From: Candidatus Woesearchaeota archaeon
Lineage (GTDB): Archaea; Nanobdellota; Nanobdellia; SCGC-AAA011-G17; UBA489
DNA: 64,000 nt
Assembly (NCBI GenBank): GCA_964344635.1
Contig: CAYFOE010000004.1
Span: 279 to 64,278 of the forward strand
Direction of reading: 5' to 3'
Part shown: piece after piece, positions 50,938 to 56,419 of the stretch
Layout of the letters: each line of letters starts with the position of its first letter
Position numbering within the stretch: position 1 is the first letter of the stretch
Notes under the pieces: model-generated
Seen by the model: only the letters and a program-made list of their open reading frames with translations
Database searches by the model: none
Told to the model about the DNA's origin: nothing
Program-made: the position numbers and the translations under genes

Positions 50938-53475
50938 ATGGTTGGAAAATCTAAAATTCTTGGTCTTTTTGCAATATTTATAGTTTTTTTAGGAAGTTTA
51001 GTGTATGCAAATAGCGCAATTGAGCCTATCTCCATAAATATTAATGAAAGCAATGCGACTTATGTGGTTGGCGAAGAAATAACCTTGGATTTCGAGGCTG
51101 AATTTGGTGGCCCTTTCTCTTCATTGACCAATCTGGAAGTTTCTCTAGCAGACTTAAATTTCTCTGGACGATTCTTGGAAGTACTGGACGCACAAGGAAT
51201 AAGTTATGCGGTAGAGAATGGAACTAGCTCCCTGAGTGGAAGTACCGATGAAGCACATTTTGCATTCAATGACCTAGGCGAACAAATAATCTACCTGAGA
51301 GTAGACAGTAATGAAGACACCTTCAGTGATCTAGACTTTGAAGTTTTAGGAAGTGAAGATATTAAACTACCCTACCTTGATTTTGGAGCAGACGGAATCG
51401 TCGAATGGAAATTCTTTGGAGACTTCTTAGGATTTAGTTCAGACTATTTATTATCTGAAACACTAACAGAAGATGATGGTGGGGACATAATTATTACAAA
51501 TGAAAAATCAAATTATTGGTGTGAACAAATTGATTTACCCCTAACCAGAGATTTACAAGTCTATGTTAAGATGGAAGAACTAGATGTTAATGAAAACATT
51601 TCAGCAACACTAATACAACTTAGTGATCTAGAATGTAAATCTGATTGTGAAGGTTTTGGAGGACAATACACTTGTGATGTAGATATAGGAAGTTCTTTGG
51701 ATTATTATAGTTGTGATTTGAGTGCAGAGTACACTCTAGAAGGTGAATTTTTAGTGTGTATATACAATGAAGTCCAAGGCGACGGACAAACCCAACAAGC
51801 TAAACTGAGAATCGAGAGCAATAGCCCTAATTCTGCATACGTTTGTAATGTTGACGGGGATTCATATGATTGCAATTCTCAAGGCTCTGATGACTTTCTG
51901 ATCAAAGTCAAGGCAGGAGATTACAACGAAGTTTTGAACGGAAATGCAAACTTCATGGCAGGACTAATAAACAATTATGAGGCCTTTATCACAGTACTAA
52001 ATTATGAAATCTCAAACTGCATGGAGTTGGATGACGGAAAATGTGCGATTCCATTGAAAGTTGGAAGCTCTTCCAGCGGAGTTTTAACATTAAAAGATTT
52101 GAATATGGAATACAATACTGCAAGCGGACTGAAATCAACCAACAACTTCTACATGGGCATTGACATTGGACAAGGTCTGGTTTATGAATTGGGCGAGTTT
52201 AACTTAACAGACTTGAATGAGAGCATAGTTCTGAACATGAGTACTGAAGGACTGTACATCTATGCTCCTGAAGTAAATTTTTCAGGAAACTATAACCTGG
52301 AACTTTCATTTAATCCGGGGCCGAGTGATTCAATCAGCGTAGAGATCAGCACATTTACCGAAGGTTTGATGGACAGTGAAGGAGCTAGAAGCACCATACA
52401 AGAACACATCGATTTCCTAGAATCTGAAGAGACAAATTATGGAGACGTTTTAGAAGTAATGGGCTTGAATAGTGACGTCTCATTTGCATTATCCGGATTG
52501 AATGATTATCTGAATGAGTTAGATATGTTGAACGGGACAAATCAAAGTGAAATGGATTCGTTTATAGAAGATTTAAATCAGAACATTGATACCCTAATGG
52601 AAAATACTCCAAAGGTAATAAGTGTACTCTCTAGCTTAGACGACGAAGTAGTTATAGAACCCAGCGACGTTTTAGCAGAAATGGTTCCCACAGGTGATTT
52701 GAACGACGCATATTATTTACAAAATGATTTCAATGTTAAATCAAATGCAAGATATGTTGAAGTCGTTTTATTCAACGATATCGAAATAAAAGGGTCAATT
52801 ATTCGGAAGGAAGTAAGTGGCTCAGGAAGTAACTATTATGTCTATGAAACGATACCTGCCTTCGTCTCAACCAATGAGCCCAGTTTTATCGACGGATTTA
52901 GTCAAGTGAAAAGCGGAAACATAAATCTATACCGATCAGAATATTCCAACGTAATGGGTGCGAGCTACAACTATTTCTTCGAGAATGAAGACGTAACTCT
53001 TGGTTTGAAAGATATGAAAACAGTACTAATCCCAAAAGCAGGAGTCATGCCCAGAGGAAGTGAAGAAATTCCAGTTTGCGGAGATAATAAGTGCGCAGTA
53101 TTAATGGTCGACGGAGAAAAAATTTACCTCGAAGATGCAATCTCTTGCCCCCAAGATTGTGCCAAGAAAGTTAACTGGGGTGGAATCTTAATGGTTTTCA
53201 TGATCGGTGTCTTGATCATAGTTGCAGTAGCAGTCTATTTTAGATTTATGAAAAAGAAAGTCGGCGGAAAAGGAGACACCGTGAAAAAATCTCAATTTGC
53301 AAGTGAGAAAGATGAAACACAATTAAGAGAATATATTTCTAAATCTATTGCTTCCGGAGCAACTAGAGAAAAAATCACCAAAATTCTATTAGAAAGAGGT
53401 TGGAAGAAGGAGCAAATCGATTATGCATTTAAACCAAAAATTGGGAAACCCAAAAACGGAAAGAATATCAAGTAG
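50938..53475 (+). CDS. Large acidic secreted protein with C-terminal TM and conserved-looking cytoplasmic tail
   Basis: Signal peptide, acidic ectodomain, CGDNKC..E...CPQDC, TM, then LREYI...LLERGWKKEQIDYAF. Confidence 0.8.
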   Translation: MVGKSKILGLFAIFIVFLGSLVYANSAIEPISININESNATYVVGEEITLDFEAEFGGPFSSLTNLEVSLADLNFSGRFLEVLDAQGISYAVENGTSSLSGSTDEAHFAFNDLGEQIIYLRVDSNEDTFSDLDFEVLGSEDIKLPYLDFGADGIVEWKFFGDFLGFSSDYLLSETLTEDDGGDIIITNEKSNYWCEQIDLPLTRDLQVYVKMEELDVNENISATLIQLSDLECKSDCEGFGGQYTCDVDIGSSLDYYSCDLSAEYTLEGEFLVCIYNEVQGDGQTQQAKLRIESNSPNSAYVCNVDGDSYDCNSQGSDDFLIKVKAGDYNEVLNGNANFMAGLINNYEAFITVLNYEISNCMELDDGKCAIPLKVGSSSSGVLTLKDLNMEYNTASGLKSTNNFYMGIDIGQGLVYELGEFNLTDLNESIVLNMSTEGLYIYAPEVNFSGNYNLELSFNPGPSDSISVEISTFTEGLMDSEGARSTIQEHIDFLESEETNYGDVLEVMGLNSDVSFALSGLNDYLNELDMLNGTNQSEMDSFIEDLNQNIDTLMENTPKVISVLSSLDDEVVIEPSDVLAEMVPTGDLNDAYYLQNDFNVKSNARYVEVVLFNDIEIKGSIIRKEVSGSGSNYYVYETIPAFVSTNEPSFIDGFSQVKSGNINLYRSEYSNVMGASYNYFFENEDVTLGLKDMKTVLIPKAGVMPRGSEEIPVCGDNKCAVLMVDGEKIYLEDAISCPQDCAKKVNWGGILMVFMIGVLIIVAVAVYFRFMKKKVGGKGDTVKKSQFASEKDETQLREYISKSIASGATREKITKILLERGWKKEQIDYAFKPKIGKPKNGKNIK

Positions 53476-54493
53476 TTTGTTATGTCTATTTTTTTTAATA
53501 CAACTAACAATTGTAGTTTCTGCAAGTTGCTCTGAAGGTGATGTTAGATCTTGTGGAGAATATTCTGAAGGAGAGTGTAAGCAAGGCTTACAATTTTGTG
53601 AAAACGGAGTCTGGGGATTTTGTACCGGACAAGTCTTACCTGAAAATGAAATTTGTAATGACTCAAGAGATAACGATTGTGACGGTCTTGTCGACGAAGG
53701 CTGCGAATGTGTTTTAGGAGATAGCAGATCCTGCGGGCCATTGAATGAAACCGGAATCTGTCAAAAAGGTTTGGAATTTTGCACTGAACTCGGAGAATGG
53801 TCTGGCGATTGTTTAAACTCTACAATGCCCGATGTTGAGAAATGTGGTTCTGGCAGCGGAAACGGTCTAGATGATAACTGTGATGGGATTATTGATGAAG
53901 GGTGTAGTTTGAACAATGAAACGGAAATCCCTGTGACCTGCACAAACAGGGTTAAAGATGCAGGCGAAGAAGGAATTGACTGTGGAGGGCCCTGTGCAAT
54001 TAAGTGCACCGTAGAAGAAGACCTTGACGAAGACAAAGATGGCCTCACTTTAGCTATGGAACTTGAAAGAGGAACAGACCCATTAATGGAAGACACAGAC
54101 TTTGACGGCATTAATGATTATGATGACCAATACCTTCTATGCCCAAACAATTTTTGTGATATACTAAAAGGAGAAAATCATGAAAACTGTCCCACAGATT
54201 GTGAAAAAGAAGGCGGAAACCCTTCATGGATACTATTAATCATAGTAATATCATTTTTAGGGATCGGTTTATTTTTCTATATCCAATTCAAAAAATCAAC
54301 CGGAAAAATTCAAGACGAGAAGAAAGAAAAACCCAAAGCTTGGAAAGGCTTAGACGAAAGCTATACACCTGAAAAAAAATCTTACACTCGGAAAAGAGTC
54401 TATGTTAGAGACAAAAAGAAACCCTTTGATGAAACCGAAACAGAAAAAATGCTCAGAGAGTCTTTAGAATCTGTAAAAAAAGGAAGGATCTAG
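53423..54493 (+). CDS. Cys-rich membrane-anchored protein with MopE-like and Ca-binding DxDxDG repeats
   Basis: EICNDSRDNDCDGLVDEG, GLDDNCDGIIDEG, DEDKDGL, DTDFDGIND; C-terminal TM; start uncertain. Confidence 0.8.
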   Translation: MHLNQKLGNPKTERISSSLLCLFFLIQLTIVVSASCSEGDVRSCGEYSEGECKQGLQFCENGVWGFCTGQVLPENEICNDSRDNDCDGLVDEGCECVLGDSRSCGPLNETGICQKGLEFCTELGEWSGDCLNSTMPDVEKCGSGSGNGLDDNCDGIIDEGCSLNNETEIPVTCTNRVKDAGEEGIDCGGPCAIKCTVEEDLDEDKDGLTLAMELERGTDPLMEDTDFDGINDYDDQYLLCPNNFCDILKGENHENCPTDCEKEGGNPSWILLIIVISFLGIGLFFYIQFKKSTGKIQDEKKEKPKAWKGLDESYTPEKKSYTRKRVYVRDKKKPFDETETEKMLRESLESVKKGRI

Positions 54494-54494
54494 T

Positions 54495-56378
54495 TTGCAA
54501 AAAGGTCAGGCAGCCATGGAATTTGTATTCAGCTATGGTTGGGCGCTAGTTGTGATGATGGTTGCTGTTGCAAGCCTTAGCTTATTTGTCTTTGACGGAG
54601 GAGACAATTTAGTTTCCACAGTGTGTAATTTCGGACCAGGACTTTTTTGTAACGAGTTTCAAGTATCTGCCAAGGTAAATGGAGGGACTTACAATTCTAA
54701 CGTACCAGACATCCCACAAAAGTTTTTGAACATGGCAAGCTATTCCCCCATTAGGAATTATTATATTGCAATCAATGAACCCTGCGCAAACAATTCCAAT
54801 GACGGACTATCATATACCTGCGATGGACAAGGCGGAGGGCCCTGGAAAGATTTTGAAGCATTGAATGTTAGATTTAACCAAGGCTTTTTATTTGAACCAG
54901 GCGATGCTTTAGTCTTTAGAAGTGGAATTTATGAACTGTCCAGTTCTGGACTGAACCTAAAAAATGACGGTCTCGAAAATGCACCAATCAAGTTTATGGC
55001 ATTTACCGGAGATAACGTAGTTATGAGAGTTAACCAAAATCCACTATTGCTCGCAGGAAAATATACCGTATTGGAAGGATTGAAAATTGAATGCAATGTA
55101 TTGAAAGAATGTATAGTCGTATTCGACCAAAATGATTCTGCAGACCATATAGTGGTGTATAACAATGAGATCATTGGTGCCACTGAAGACGGAATAAAGT
55201 CTACGAATAAGTCTTCCAACTTGTTCGTGTATAGAAATAAATTCTACGATACCCGCGGTGCCGGAGAATCTATCGACGCCTTCGGAGTTCAAGAAGCATG
55301 GATTGTCGAAAATGAATTCTACGAAGAAAACCTTCAAGGAAGCAACCCAGGCGCAGTTATGTGGACTAAAGGTGGTGCGAAAGACATCTACTACATTAGA
55401 AATCATTTCCACGATTTTACTGTAGAAAACCATGCAGTAATTTTGGGTGGTTGTTGTTGGGAAAATTGGAACGGCGTTCCAGGAGTGGACTATGTTGCAG
55501 AAAGAGTTTACGCCTACGATAACATATTTGAAAGAATAAACATTAGTGGATCTTATGCATATAGGGGAGTGATAGGTGTTTCAGGTTGCAAAGATTGTAT
55601 TGTCGAGGGCAACGTTTTGAACGAAGTCGATGACGTGATCGGAATCCATAGCTCCGAAGACGGACCAATTAAACTAGCCTCCAAGAACGTGGTTATCAGG
55701 AATAATAAAGAAAGCAATGTAAATAACGACAGAGTGTTGAATCTCCATGCAGACTCTACAGATGGATTGTTAATCGAAGGAAACGAATACTGCGTTAATG
55801 ACCCTCACGTGTACTATGGAGGGAACCTAATGGCCTTACCAGACTTCATGAACTACGGTTTTGAATTAAATTACAATGCCTGTGGATCGAATAGTTCTTC
55901 AGGAGTTAACGGATTGAATTTAGTCGTGACTAACTCACTAGGCAAGGACATTGATGAATTTTTTGTTTACGTTAAAGAAGGAACCGGTGAATCCTGTAGT
56001 GGGAATTATGGAATCTTAGCATCCAAAACTCTAGCCGACCAAGGCTACTATCCTATTGATAACTTTGAAAAAGATGCAAAACTAAGACTAGGGACCTTTG
56101 ATTTAGCAGGGATAGACAATGAAATGAACTCTTTAGTCTGTGAAGAACACAGCGCAGTTTTTGACAATTCAGTTACTAACTGTTGCAATACCTTTGGAGA
56201 CTTGGATAACCTAGTTAGTTTCGGCAATCTTCCTCCAGTTGAATGTTCAAGTGCCTGCTCATCAAGCAGCTTAGAAAGAGGAGATCTATTCTCTCAAGAA
56301 CTAGTTTTAGTTTACAAATTCAGAAACTCTGAAATCTTTCATGTAAAACACGTCGAAACTAGAAGTTTAGTTGAATAA
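54495..56378 (+). CDS. Archaeal pilin (KG|QAAMEF) with inserted right-handed beta-helix domain
   Basis: QKGQAAMEFVFSYGWALVV N-terminus; YYIA..NDGLS..GPWK..PGD.LVFRSGIY followed by Asn/Ile-ladder repeats; pilin-type LVVTNSLGKDI resumes afterwards. Confidence 0.8.
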   Translation: MQKGQAAMEFVFSYGWALVVMMVAVASLSLFVFDGGDNLVSTVCNFGPGLFCNEFQVSAKVNGGTYNSNVPDIPQKFLNMASYSPIRNYYIAINEPCANNSNDGLSYTCDGQGGGPWKDFEALNVRFNQGFLFEPGDALVFRSGIYELSSSGLNLKNDGLENAPIKFMAFTGDNVVMRVNQNPLLLAGKYTVLEGLKIECNVLKECIVVFDQNDSADHIVVYNNEIIGATEDGIKSTNKSSNLFVYRNKFYDTRGAGESIDAFGVQEAWIVENEFYEENLQGSNPGAVMWTKGGAKDIYYIRNHFHDFTVENHAVILGGCCWENWNGVPGVDYVAERVYAYDNIFERINISGSYAYRGVIGVSGCKDCIVEGNVLNEVDDVIGIHSSEDGPIKLASKNVVIRNNKESNVNNDRVLNLHADSTDGLLIEGNEYCVNDPHVYYGGNLMALPDFMNYGFELNYNACGSNSSSGVNGLNLVVTNSLGKDIDEFFVYVKEGTGESCSGNYGILASKTLADQGYYPIDNFEKDAKLRLGTFDLAGIDNEMNSLVCEEHSAVFDNSVTNCCNTFGDLDNLVSFGNLPPVECSSACSSSSLERGDLFSQELVLVYKFRNSEIFHVKHVETRSLVE

Positions 56379-56419
56379 TAAAGGAAACATATAAATAAAC
56401 TTTAGGCTGTTAAGAAATT

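What the first reader, a model, noticed from the sequence alone, without database searches (positions are those of the whole stretch)
54495..56378. Pilin with a ~400 aa beta-helix (polysaccharide lyase-like) domain spliced into its globular head
Seen: prepilin start QKG|QAAMEFVFSYGW and C..GPGLFC, then a YYIA..NDG..PWK..PGD cap and parallel beta-helix repeats, then the pilin-type LVVTNSLGKDI strand and a RGDLFSQELVLVY..HV C-terminus. Known: this beta-helix fold binds or cleaves polysaccharides (pectate lyase/chondroitinase-like). Inference: a glycan-binding or glycan-degrading domain displayed on a pilus, suited to recognising or breaching a host glycocalyx.
Basis: partly seen in the sequence, partly recalled or inferred. 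Interest (0 to 1): 0.75.

Follow-up and report, generated by a model that had tools for sequence, protein, structure and literature searches.

The report
Archaeal pilin with inserted beta-helix module
A tiny uncultured archaeon (Woesearchaeota, DPANN) encodes a pilus subunit whose head is split by a complete sugar-polymer-lyase-like beta-helix domain, an arrangement seen once in a bacterium (ComZ) but, in the paper library searched here, not reported for archaea or with an enzyme-like module.

Summary
Window 54495-56378 (+) is one intact 627-aa ORF.

- **Pilin flanks.** Residues 1-61 and 471-627 together form a complete pilin of a ~210-aa Woesearchaeota family. The signal is class III, MQKG|QAAMEF, with Gln+1 and Glu+5.
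- **Insert.** Residues 72-460 are a right-handed parallel beta-helix (AlphaFold pLDDT 93). About 10-residue linkers join it into the hairpin between the first two head strands.
- **Relatives of the fold.** The closest structures are PL6 and PL9 polysaccharide lyases, GH136, RbmB and phage tailspikes. Sequence identity is only 10-16%, so no CAZy family membership is shown.
- **Rarity.** No other protein among 1.84 billion representatives, 60 related genomes or 448 pilin loci combines the two parts.
- **Not an artefact.** The identical gene, with the same neighbours, was assembled from four separate sequencing runs. Three same-genus genomes have an empty site there.
- **Origin.** The module clusters with an internal module of secreted beta-helix proteins with a weakly GH39-like C-terminal domain from congeners.
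- **Context.** Two paralogous pilins in this genome carry C-terminal lectin and lyase modules.

Best reading: a tip-located minor pilin that presents a glycan-binding, probably glycan-cleaving, module. Catalysis and filament incorporation are inferred, not shown. It is a new variant of the bacterial modular or domain-inserted pilins such as ComZ and GspK.

The parts
54495..56378 (+). Whole gene: 627-aa prepilin with an inserted beta-helix. TTG start, TAA stop.
   Evidence: The same 627-aa product was called independently in other assemblies (P0155).
54482..54488 (+). Shine-Dalgarno-like GGAAGGA, 6 nt upstream of the TTG start. The upstream gene's stop codon is at 54491-54493.
   Evidence: read directly from the sequence.
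54495..54506 (+). Class III signal-peptide leader MQKG. Predicted cleavage is after Gly4, which gives Gln+1 and Glu+5.
   Evidence: The motif fits that of pilins processed by EppA in Methanococcus maripaludis (PMC3875500).
54507..54602 (+). N-terminal hydrophobic alpha-helix (residues 5-36), the part that would form the filament core.
   Evidence: AlphaFold models a helix at residues 2-32 with pLDDT 77-89. Y14, G15 and W16 are invariant in the family.
54603..54677 (+). Pilin head, first piece (residues 37-61): the C44-x7-C52 loop and strand beta-1 (residues 50-61).
   Evidence: pLDDT 86-89 for residues 41-60.
54678..54707 (+). N-side linker NGGTYNSNVP (residues 62-71).
   Evidence: Homology to the beta-helix family starts at residues 63-72. 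pLDDT is lower here (69).
54708..55874 (+). Right-handed parallel beta-helix module (residues 72-460), with an N-terminal cap helix and about 12 rungs.
   Evidence: AlphaFold pLDDT 93.2, pTM 0.93. Foldseek matches PL6, PL9, GH136, RbmB and tailspikes. Stand-alone and multidomain homologs at E 1e-113 to 1e-10.
55185..55370 (+). Family-conserved polar residues on successive rungs: E231, D232, K235 / D261 / K292. This is the candidate substrate groove or active site. It is followed by N303, G318-G319 and C320-C321.
   Evidence: These columns are 81-100% conserved among 37 homologs. The residues fall in strands spaced 26-31 residues apart in the model. Their role is inferred.
55875..55904 (+). C-side linker NACGSNSSSG (residues 461-470).
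   Evidence: Homology to the module ends at residues 466-473. pLDDT is below 50 for the last 5 residues of the module model.
55905..56375 (+). Pilin head, second piece (residues 471-627): strands beta-2 onward, the Cys-rich subdomain (C501, C549, C563, C564, C584, C588) and the C-terminal strands ending in ...HV..E.
   Evidence: pLDDT 74-96, except 51-65 for residues 551-590.
50938..54493 (+). Two upstream surface-protein genes in the same orientation. The first (845 aa) has a signal peptide and a C-terminal TM helix. The second (356 aa) is Cys-rich with a C-terminal TM helix. They overlap each other by 53 nt, and the second ends 1 nt before the pilin gene, so the three are probably co-transcribed.
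   Evidence: The 356-aa gene is conserved in the same-genus genomes (in G001 only a weak partial match, E 1.7e-6).

Best explanation
**What it is.** The gene encodes a minor type IV pilin of a Woesearchaeota (DPANN) archaeon. The scaffold is a complete member of a ~210-aa Cys-rich pilin subfamily, here called 'CC-type'.

A complete ~390-aa right-handed parallel beta-helix module is inserted in the hairpin between the first two strands of the head. The module brings its own ~10-residue Gly/Ser/Asn linkers. It belongs to a clade of modules that sit internally in secreted Woesearchaeal proteins of the layout signal peptide, N-region, beta-helix, weakly GH39-like domain.

**Proposed working (inferred).**
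1. The preprotein is cleaved at MQKG|Q by the genome's single A24 prepilin peptidase.
2. Its hydrophobic N-terminal helix is taken up by one of the two type IV filament machines.
3. A 45-kDa domain on the head cannot pack along the shaft, so the subunit most likely sits at the filament tip, as argued for ComZ, GspK and PilB.
4. There the beta-helix exposes a groove lined by conserved E231/D232/K235, D261 and K292. The groove binds, and more likely than not cleaves, a polysaccharide of another cell's envelope or of the surrounding matrix.
5. This helps a 0.66-Mb, presumably host-dependent archaeon to recognise, hold or dig through glycan layers.

**Shown:** the ORF, the split-pilin architecture, the fold, the origin of the module, the presence of the machinery, and that the gene is real. 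**Inferred:** processing, filament or tip location, glycan specificity and catalysis.
For: **Architecture**
- Two-stretch matches to contiguous pilins.
- An alignment with essentially one gap that keeps all 16 invariant pilin columns.
- Pilin flanks modelled at pLDDT 74-96, apart from residues 31-40 and 551-590 at 51-65.
- Insert modelled as a beta-helix at pLDDT 93.

**Glycan-directed fold**
- Foldseek top hits are PL6 alginate lyases and chondroitinase B, PL9 lyases, GH136, RbmB, AlgE4 and tailspikes (E 1e-7 to 1e-4).
- A family profile hits the PL6 lyase Pedsa0632 at 1.6e-18 and a GH136 enzyme at 8.8e-13.
- Homologs pass Pfam Beta_helix and NosD. They carry lipobox-like signals or T9SS sorting domains, so they are secreted.
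- The query keeps 34 of 36 family-conserved positions. These include the D/K residues on successive rungs.

**Context**
- The same genome has pilins with C-terminal PF14099 polysaccharide lyase (E 1e-31) and LamG modules.
- It also has two ATPase-plus-platform loci and one prepilin peptidase.

**The gene is real**
- Identical DNA with identical neighbours occurs on contigs from four runs, ERR2281800, ERR2281804, ERR2281805 and ERR2281807.

**Precedent for tip placement of bulky pilins**
- PMC6561018 (ComZ) and PMC8179133 (PilB).
Against: - The query itself gets no Pfam or NCBIfam hit.
- Similarity to characterised lyases is 10-16% identity with TM-scores of 0.4-0.55. The strongest profile match covers only the N-terminal cap, so no catalytic residue could be mapped.
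- Beta-helices can also be pure adhesins. PfbA is among the hits.
- The pilin family itself is in no curated library and has no solved relative. 'Pilin' therefore rests on the signal-peptide motif, family size and the machinery.
- The gene is a singleton, with no ortholog in 8 congeners or 60 relatives. Purifying selection could not be measured.
- The termini of a beta-helix normally lie at opposite ends of the solenoid, so the geometry of an insertion into a hairpin is untested. No model coordinates were available, and no single model covered both parts.
Confidence: 0.6

Rival explanations
1. The architecture and location are the same, but the beta-helix is a non-catalytic adhesin or lectin. 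It only binds a surface polymer, as the PfbA-type beta-helix adhesins do.
For: No known catalytic motif could be aligned. PfbA and non-enzymatic beta-helix proteins are among the structural hits. A sister pilin carries a lectin-type LamG module.
Against: Asp and Lys columns on consecutive rungs are 94-97% conserved across 37 proteins that share only 20-47% identity with the query. That is more typical of an active site. The best structural and profile hits are enzymes. In congeners the module is fused to a weakly GH39-like domain.
Confidence: 0.25
2. The protein is not polymerised into a filament. The class III signal and hydrophobic helix serve only as a membrane anchor or short pseudopilus stalk that displays the module at the cell surface. 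From my own knowledge, this resembles the Sulfolobus sugar-binding proteins that have pilin-type signals (the 'bindosome').
For: The gene lies far from both filament-machine loci. It sits in an operon with two membrane-anchored surface proteins. The bulky head is hard to pack in a shaft.
Against: It keeps a full pilin head with every family-invariant residue, not just the signal peptide. Stand-alone pilin genes are common in archaea (PMC13705601). Bulky inserted pilins are tip subunits in bacteria (PMC6561018).
Confidence: 0.15
3. The gene is a young, non-functional chimera. An accidental recombination product is being carried by one clonal population.
For: It is a singleton, absent from all 8 congeners, and three of them have an empty site between the same two neighbouring genes. 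All four assemblies are clonal, and one has a P116L change at an invariant Pro.
Against: The 1884-nt frame is intact, and both junctions are in frame. All 16 invariant pilin residues and 34 of 36 conserved beta-helix positions are retained, although the module has diverged to 43-49% identity from its nearest relatives. That leaves ample time for decay if the gene were unselected. A proper SD-plus-TTG start is present.
Confidence: 0.07
4. The pilin is a DNA receptor like ComZ, and the inserted solenoid binds extracellular DNA.
For: ComZ is the only solved pilin with an inserted beta-solenoid, and it binds DNA (PMC6561018).
Against: ComZ's solenoid has the ice-binding-protein fold, and ComZ is not among the 50 matches listed by Foldseek. 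The module here is homologous to secreted carbohydrate-active-type beta-helices.
Confidence: 0.03

Closest known systems
ComZ of Thermus thermophilus (competence pilus tip pilin; PMC6561018)
   Same: A ~380-400-residue beta-solenoid is inserted through two short linkers into the beta-sheet of a pilin fold. The bulk argues for a tip location. It shows how a pilin gains a function by domain insertion.
   Different: ComZ is bacterial and has a GspK-like pseudopilin scaffold. [quoted passage not shown] Its solenoid has a triangular ice-binding-protein fold that binds DNA, whereas here the fold is pectate-lyase-like with homologs among secreted glycan enzymes. No sequence or fold match was found between the two.
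Bacterial modular pilins: Streptococcus sanguinis PilB (vWA) and PilC (ConA-like lectin) (PMC8179133, PMC9934059)
   Same: A pilin module plus a functional module for adhesion to proteins or glycans, with a predicted tip location. The paralogs in this genome (pilin + LamG, pilin + PF14099) have exactly this end-grafted layout.
   Different: In those pilins the extra module is appended after the pilin module. Here it interrupts the pilin module. The organism here is archaeal, with a class III signal of the EppA type (Gln+1).
GspK (type II secretion tip pseudopilin)
   Same: An extra domain is inserted within the pilin beta-sheet, and the subunit sits at the tip (as summarised in PMC8179133 and PMC6561018).
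   Different: The inserted domain is alpha-helical and of unclear function. The system is a bacterial T2SS, and there is no homology.
Right-handed beta-helix polysaccharide lyases and hydrolases: PL6 (Pedsa0632, AlyGC, chondroitinase B), PL9 (Pel9A, BT4170), GH136 lacto-N-biosidase, Vibrio cholerae RbmB
   Same: The overall fold is shared (Foldseek probability 1.0, E 1e-7 to 1e-5). The N-terminal cap region is shared at sequence-profile level (E 1.6e-18 to PL6, 8.8e-13 to GH136). Polar residues lie on successive rungs.
   Different: Identity is 10-16% and TM-scores are 0.4-0.55. No catalytic or Ca2+ ligands could be aligned. The family has its own signature (EDGIK, E[SA]IDxFG, WxKGG, LGGCCW). 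None of these enzymes is part of a pilin.
Phage tailspike depolymerases
   Same: A beta-helix glycan-directed module carried at the end of a fibre to reach a cell surface. Structural hits include phi29 gp12 and CBA120 TSP3, and BFVD tailspikes at E 1e-8 to 1e-4.
   Different: Tailspikes are trimeric and viral. The module here is predicted as a monomer tethered at both ends to a pilin. The query has no PHROG hit.

Membership tests
Archaeal type IV pilin (class III signal peptide, EppA-type) | Short basic leader ending in Gly, Gln at +1, Glu at +5, followed by a ~20-30-residue hydrophobic helix | tested here: met
   MQKG|QAAME-FVFSYGWALVVMMVAVASLSLFVF. The criteria are those stated in PMC3875500. 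A helix is modelled at residues 2-32.
Archaeal type IV pilin (class III signal peptide, EppA-type) | Globular head homologous to other pilins of the lineage | tested here: met
   Residues 1-61 plus 471-627 match more than 20 contiguous ~200-230-aa pilins end to end, and 16 invariant columns are kept. No curated family or solved structure covers this pilin family.
Archaeal type IV pilin (class III signal peptide, EppA-type) | Prepilin peptidase, assembly ATPase and platform protein encoded in the genome | tested here: met
   Peptidase_A24 at C3:67166. T2SSE at C1:55514 and C8:17983. T2SSF at C1:56788 and 57605, and at C8:15618 and 16339.
Archaeal type IV pilin (class III signal peptide, EppA-type) | Cleavage by the peptidase and incorporation into a filament | not testable with these tools
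   Needs biochemistry or microscopy.
Right-handed parallel beta-helix (pectate-lyase-like fold) | Stack of about 10 or more three-stranded rungs with an Asn ladder and an N-terminal cap helix | tested here: met
   AlphaFold pLDDT 93.2 and pTM 0.93, with short strands repeating every 25-31 residues. Conserved N303, N343, N373, N404 and N430. Foldseek probability 1.0 to many such structures.
Right-handed parallel beta-helix (pectate-lyase-like fold) | Pfam Beta_helix (PF13229) match | tested here: not met
   The query gets no hit even at E <= 10. Homologs P0003, P0004, P0015, P0016, P0019, P0024, P0031 and P0041 pass the cut-off.
Polysaccharide lyase family 6 | Sequence-level membership across the catalytic core, with the Ca2+ site and the catalytic Lys/Arg pair | tested here: inconclusive
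   The family profile hits Pedsa0632 at E 1.6e-18, but through the N-terminal cap (profile 100-206) and a C-terminal rung. The catalytic core is not aligned. Chondroitinas_B gives a sub-threshold hit in homolog P0004 only.
Polysaccharide lyase family 9 | Asp cluster binding Ca2+ and a catalytic Lys on successive rungs (Pel9A; from my own knowledge) | tested here: inconclusive
   The fold matches 5olq, 5olr and 1ru4 (E 1e-7 to 2e-6). A D232 / D261 / K292 series exists, but no residue-level superposition was possible.
Modular pilins (sensu Raynaud et al. 2021) | N-terminal pilin module plus a module not specific to pilus biology | tested here: met

The most novel reading that the evidence does not exclude
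DPANN archaea have rebuilt the phage-tailspike principle on a type IV filament. A fast-evolving, cassette-like beta-helix depolymerase module is shuffled between secreted glycosidases and pilin loops. Mounted at the pilus tip, it enzymatically opens the glycan layer (capsule, EPS or S-layer glycans) of a specific host cell so that the symbiont can dock. The lectin- and lyase-bearing sister pilins would then form a host-range-determining tool kit.
Probability: 0.25. Interest if true: 0.8.

Novelty: new variant of a known kind. Interest (0 to 1): 0.6.

Why it matters
DPANN archaea make up a large share of archaeal diversity and are thought to live attached to other cells, yet how they recognise and breach a partner's envelope is largely unknown.

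A pilin that carries an enzyme-like glycan module gives a concrete hypothesis that can be tested with recombinant protein, for an organism that cannot be cultured. The lectin- and lyase-tipped sister pilins in the same 0.66-Mb genome add to it.

The finding also extends pilin diversification by domain insertion. Until now this was documented structurally only in bacteria (ComZ and GspK). Here it appears in archaea and with the pectate-lyase fold.

Finally, the same module occurs inside two unrelated host proteins. That makes it a clean natural case of domain shuffling into a loop.

Tried and rejected
1. **Mixed alignment failed.** A joint MAFFT alignment of the query, pilins and beta-helix proteins (A1, with local variants) mis-aligned the pilins inside the beta-helix. 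Both families carry a vicinal 'CC' motif. I therefore ran two separate alignments and two separate AlphaFold jobs, so no single model shows both parts well and their relative geometry is unknown.
The Foldseek search with the full-length model, whose insert was unfolded, gave only meaningless Ig-like hits (E > 0.2).
3. **'Cut and paste' hypothesis.** This genome's ortholog of the secreted protein (N-region, beta-helix, weakly GH39-like domain) is a 691-aa form that lacks exactly the module. I tested whether the module had moved from that gene into the pilin.
   - The idea is weakened. Congener G008 also has the short form but no beta-helix pilin.
   - The pilin's module is only 43-49% identical to the long-form modules, while the C-terminal domains are 65-71% identical.
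   - What stands is that the module belongs to that clade (SH-aLRT 95).
4. **False lead L038.** It appeared to span residues 1-627 but is two adjacent pilin genes.
5. **P0007.** This is a pilin with a repeat-rich C-terminal region. It shows no relation to the beta-helix family by hhalign (probability 2%).
6. **Searches with no result.**
   - PHROGs gave no hit for the query module.
   - PDB sequence searches gave no hit for the pilin profile or for the weakly GH39-like domain.
   - NCBIfam gave nothing significant for the 19 members of alignment A2: no pilin family and no match at E below 0.01.
   - No paper mentions PRJEB17505.
   - Three full-text searches of the held library and two papers read turned up no archaeal pilin with an inserted domain.
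7. Independent assemblies were used instead.
Full report
**The object**

Window 54495-56378 (+) is a single open frame of 627 codons. It begins with TTG, one base after the stop codon of the upstream gene, and GGAAGGA lies 6 nt before it. No other start codon lies upstream of the conserved cleavage motif. The TTG start is therefore correct, and the 620-aa database version that starts at the internal Met (P0001) lacks its signal peptide. Another gene caller produced the same 627-aa product elsewhere (P0155).

**Organism**

- The genome holds 0.66 Mb in 39 contigs and is 95% complete.
- The contig of a same-genus genome (G003:C8, 117,735 bp) has the same length as JABIKK010000013.1, titled 'Candidatus Woesearchaeota archaeon SI054_bin47', and one of its pilin matches has the same coordinates in both (G003:C8:2-208).
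- The pilin family was found in 448 loci. Most of the 80 best are titled Woesearchaeota, Nanoarchaeota or Nanoarchaeia; about a dozen are titled 'uncultured Methanosarcinales archaeon'.
- So this is a DPANN archaeon.

**The flanks are one pilin**

The N-terminus MQKG|QAAMEF has a short basic leader ending in Gly, Gln at +1 and Glu at +5, followed by a hydrophobic helix. This fits the description of EppA-processed pilins of Methanococcus maripaludis, whose leaders are 5-13 residues against 4 here (PMC3875500).

An exhaustive HMMER search of 1.84 billion representative proteins returned 574 hits. They fall into two classes with no overlap: beta-helix proteins that match residues 62-475, and pilins. 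Re-mapping the listed hits showed the split:
- More than 20 pilins of ~200-230 aa match the query in two stretches, residues 1-60 and residues 470-618.
- These stretches adjoin in the pilin itself. For example, P0040 residues 2-58 and 63-208.
- MAFFT of the query with 18 of them opens essentially one ~405-column gap, apart from four stray residues of P0049.
- All 16 invariant columns are present in the query: Y14, G15, W16, L28, C44, G49, C52, N480, G483, G503, C549, C563, G596, Y607, H616 and E627.

In those pilins the gap position is a hairpin loop of about 4-15 residues, variable in length, between the first and second head strands. AlphaFold2 run on this alignment models the helix (residues 2-32) and the head pieces at pLDDT 74-96 over most of their length, with residues 31-40 and 551-590 at 51-65. 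Strands lie at residues 50-61 and 471-480, on either side of the insert.

**The insert is a beta-helix**

- Stand-alone homologs align from residues 62-72 to residues 455-475. They carry lipobox-like signals or T9SS sorting domains.
- Several of them pass the Pfam Beta_helix and NosD cut-offs, although the query itself does not.
- With 36 homologs as the alignment, AlphaFold2 gives pLDDT 93.2 and pTM 0.93 for residues 62-470. The model has an N-terminal helix and then short strands that recur every 25-31 residues. Confidence is low only in the first ~10 and last ~5 residues, which are the linkers.
- Foldseek against the PDB returns PL6 alginate lyases and chondroitinase B, PL9 rhamnogalacturonan and pectate lyases, GH136 lacto-N-biosidases, the Vibrio cholerae RbmB lyase, the AlgE4 epimerase, phage tailspikes and the adhesin PfbA. 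E-values run from 1e-7 to 1e-4, TM-scores from 0.4 to 0.55, and identity from 10 to 16%.
- Foldseek against viral models returns tailspike-type proteins at the same level.
- A profile of the family hits the PL6 lyase Pedsa0632 at E 1.6e-18 and a GH136 enzyme at 8.8e-13, mainly through the N-terminal cap region.
- The family has its own conserved set: E231, D232, K235, then D261, then K292, then N303 and G318-G319-C320-C321, plus an Asn ladder. The acidic and basic residues sit in strands one rung apart. The query keeps 34 of the 36 conserved positions.

This pattern looks like an active-site or ligand groove. However, no catalytic residue of a characterised family could be aligned, so catalysis is an inference and CAZy membership is not shown.

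**Uniqueness and reality**

No other protein joins the two parts. The checks were:
- all top hits of the 1.84-billion-protein search;
- six-frame searches of 60 related genomes;
- the 80 best of 448 pilin loci from 185,579 species genomes.

The one apparent full-span locus (L038) is two adjacent pilin genes.

The gene is not an assembly artefact. Identical DNA with the same neighbours occurs on contigs assembled separately from runs ERR2281800, ERR2281804 and ERR2281805. A contig from ERR2281807 differs only by a P116L change.

**Origin**

*Locus.* In three congeners (G003, G005, G008) the upstream Cys-rich gene is followed after ~49 nt by the downstream glutamate-synthase-domain gene. Homology to the window stops at the upstream stop codon and resumes just after the pilin's stop codon. 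The whole 1.9-kb gene is therefore an addition in this species.

*Pilin scaffold.* Seven of the eight congeners lack the CC-type pilin head, and the eighth (G002) has only a marginal partial match (E 9.8e-4). The head occurs in four other genera of the family at 26-35% identity (one partial match at 47%).

*Module.* The module groups with internal modules of ~1100-aa secreted proteins of congeners and unsampled relatives (G003, G005, P0002, P0010), with SH-aLRT support of 95. Those proteins have the layout signal peptide, N-region, beta-helix, weakly GH39-like domain. The genome's own stand-alone paralog is the next branch out.
- The moved piece includes that module's native Gly-rich linkers.
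- That protein is polymorphic for the module. G003 and G005 carry it, while this genome and G008 have ~690-aa forms that lack exactly it.
- The module diverges faster than its neighbouring domain. P0010 and G005 are 51% identical in the module but 79% identical in the C-terminal domain.
- The module therefore behaves as a mobile, fast-evolving cassette. A simple recent 'cut and paste' within this genome is not supported.

**Context**

- The genome has two loci with a T2SSE ATPase and T2SSF platform genes, one A24 prepilin peptidase, and a 139-aa short pilin of the same N-terminal type.
- Two further paralogs have a contiguous pilin head followed by a C-terminal PF14099 polysaccharide-lyase domain (E 1e-31) or a LamG lectin-type domain.
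- Long pilins with C-terminal modules are common in the genus.
- The gene is third in a tight same-strand array, after two membrane-anchored surface-protein genes.

**Interpretation**

The best-supported reading is a minor pilin, probably at the filament tip, that displays a glycan-directed beta-helix. I favour cleavage over mere binding. The reasons are the invariant D/K rung residues, the enzyme identity of the nearest folds, and the (sub-threshold) glycosidase-like partner domain in the module's other host protein.

Tip placement follows the steric argument made for ComZ and PilB. Two ~10-residue linkers could together span about 70 Å at full stretch, and a ~12-rung helix is about 58 Å long (my estimates). 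The insertion is therefore geometrically possible even if the module's ends lie far apart, but this was not modelled.

The rivals are a binding-only adhesin, surface display without polymerisation, a young non-functional chimera, and a ComZ-like DNA receptor.

**Comparison with the known**

This is the archaeal counterpart of bacterial modular pilins (PMC8179133). In topology it is closest to ComZ, which has a ~380-residue solenoid inserted in the pilin sheet (PMC6561018), and to GspK. It differs from these in domain of life, insertion site, fold and presumed ligand.

A 2026 survey of archaeal type IV filaments has no occurrence of 'modular' or 'fused' and no pilin-fusion passage among the terms I searched. 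My literature searches found none either.

I classify the finding as a new variant of a known kind, with interest 0.6.

Noticed in passing
window 54495-54517; also P0001, P0156, P0066, P0069, P0097, P0098: Gene callers often start these Woesearchaeal pilin genes at an internal Met (MEF... or MTYGW...), which cuts off the class III signal peptide. Here the true start is a TTG. Pilins of this lineage are probably under-recognised for this reason.
   Followed up: partly
own genome C1:107394-109466 (outside the window); G008:C19:16188-18224; G003:C13 (about 81574-84852); G005:C1 (about 98368-101655): A secreted protein (signal peptide, N-region, weakly GH39-like domain) exists with the internal beta-helix module (~1100 aa in G003 and G005) and without it (~690 aa in this genome and G008). 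The module diverges much faster than the C-terminal domain: 50% versus 77-79% identity between P0010 and G3/G5.
   Followed up: yes
window 54663-54683 and 55902-55916: The tripeptide V-N-G occurs at both junctions of the insert (KVNGG... and ...GVNGL), with different synonymous codons. Some uninterrupted pilins have VNG or NG right before strand 2. This may be a remnant of microhomology or a short duplication from the insertion event, or it may be chance.
   Followed up: partly
window 54479-54488 and 56382-56388: An AAAGGAA motif lies on both sides of the inserted gene, whereas congeners have one CAAGGAAAG at the empty site. The upstream protein's C-terminus is changed from ...IRKK* to ...VKKGRI*.
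   Followed up: partly
L097 (ERR2281807 assembly), codon 116 of the gene: The only difference among the four independent assemblies is C>T, giving P116L. It falls at a Pro that is 100% conserved in the beta-helix family.
   Followed up: no
window 50938-53475 and 53423-54493: Two surface-protein genes overlap by 53 nt. One encodes an 845-aa protein with a signal peptide, a C-terminal TM helix and a basic tail. The other encodes a 356-aa Cys-rich protein with a MopE-like motif (sub-threshold), DxDxD-type acidic repeats and a C-terminal TM helix. The second is conserved in the same-genus genomes but is 45-75 residues longer there; G001 has only a weak partial match.
   Followed up: partly
L038:427-1650 (JAUXTV010000194.1): In another Woesearchaeote, a short (~145 aa) pilin gene is directly followed by a CC-type (~215 aa) pilin gene. 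This suggests that CC-type pilins are minor partners of the short pilins.
   Followed up: no
residues 320-321 and 563-564 of the protein (window 55452-55457 and 56181-56186): Both the beta-helix family (LGGCCW) and the pilin family (NCC) have conserved vicinal cysteines. Each part has an even number of Cys (10 in the module with its C-side linker, 8 in the pilin), consistent with separate disulfide sets. The shared CC misleads MAFFT when the two families are mixed.
   Followed up: partly
P0087 (342 aa) and P0141 (306 aa), from the representative search: These pilins of the same family seem to carry smaller (~130-170 aa) insertions at a different place in the head, between the strand-2 region and the C-terminal strands. 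Head loops may be general insertion sites.
   Followed up: no
I did not examine them.
   Followed up: no
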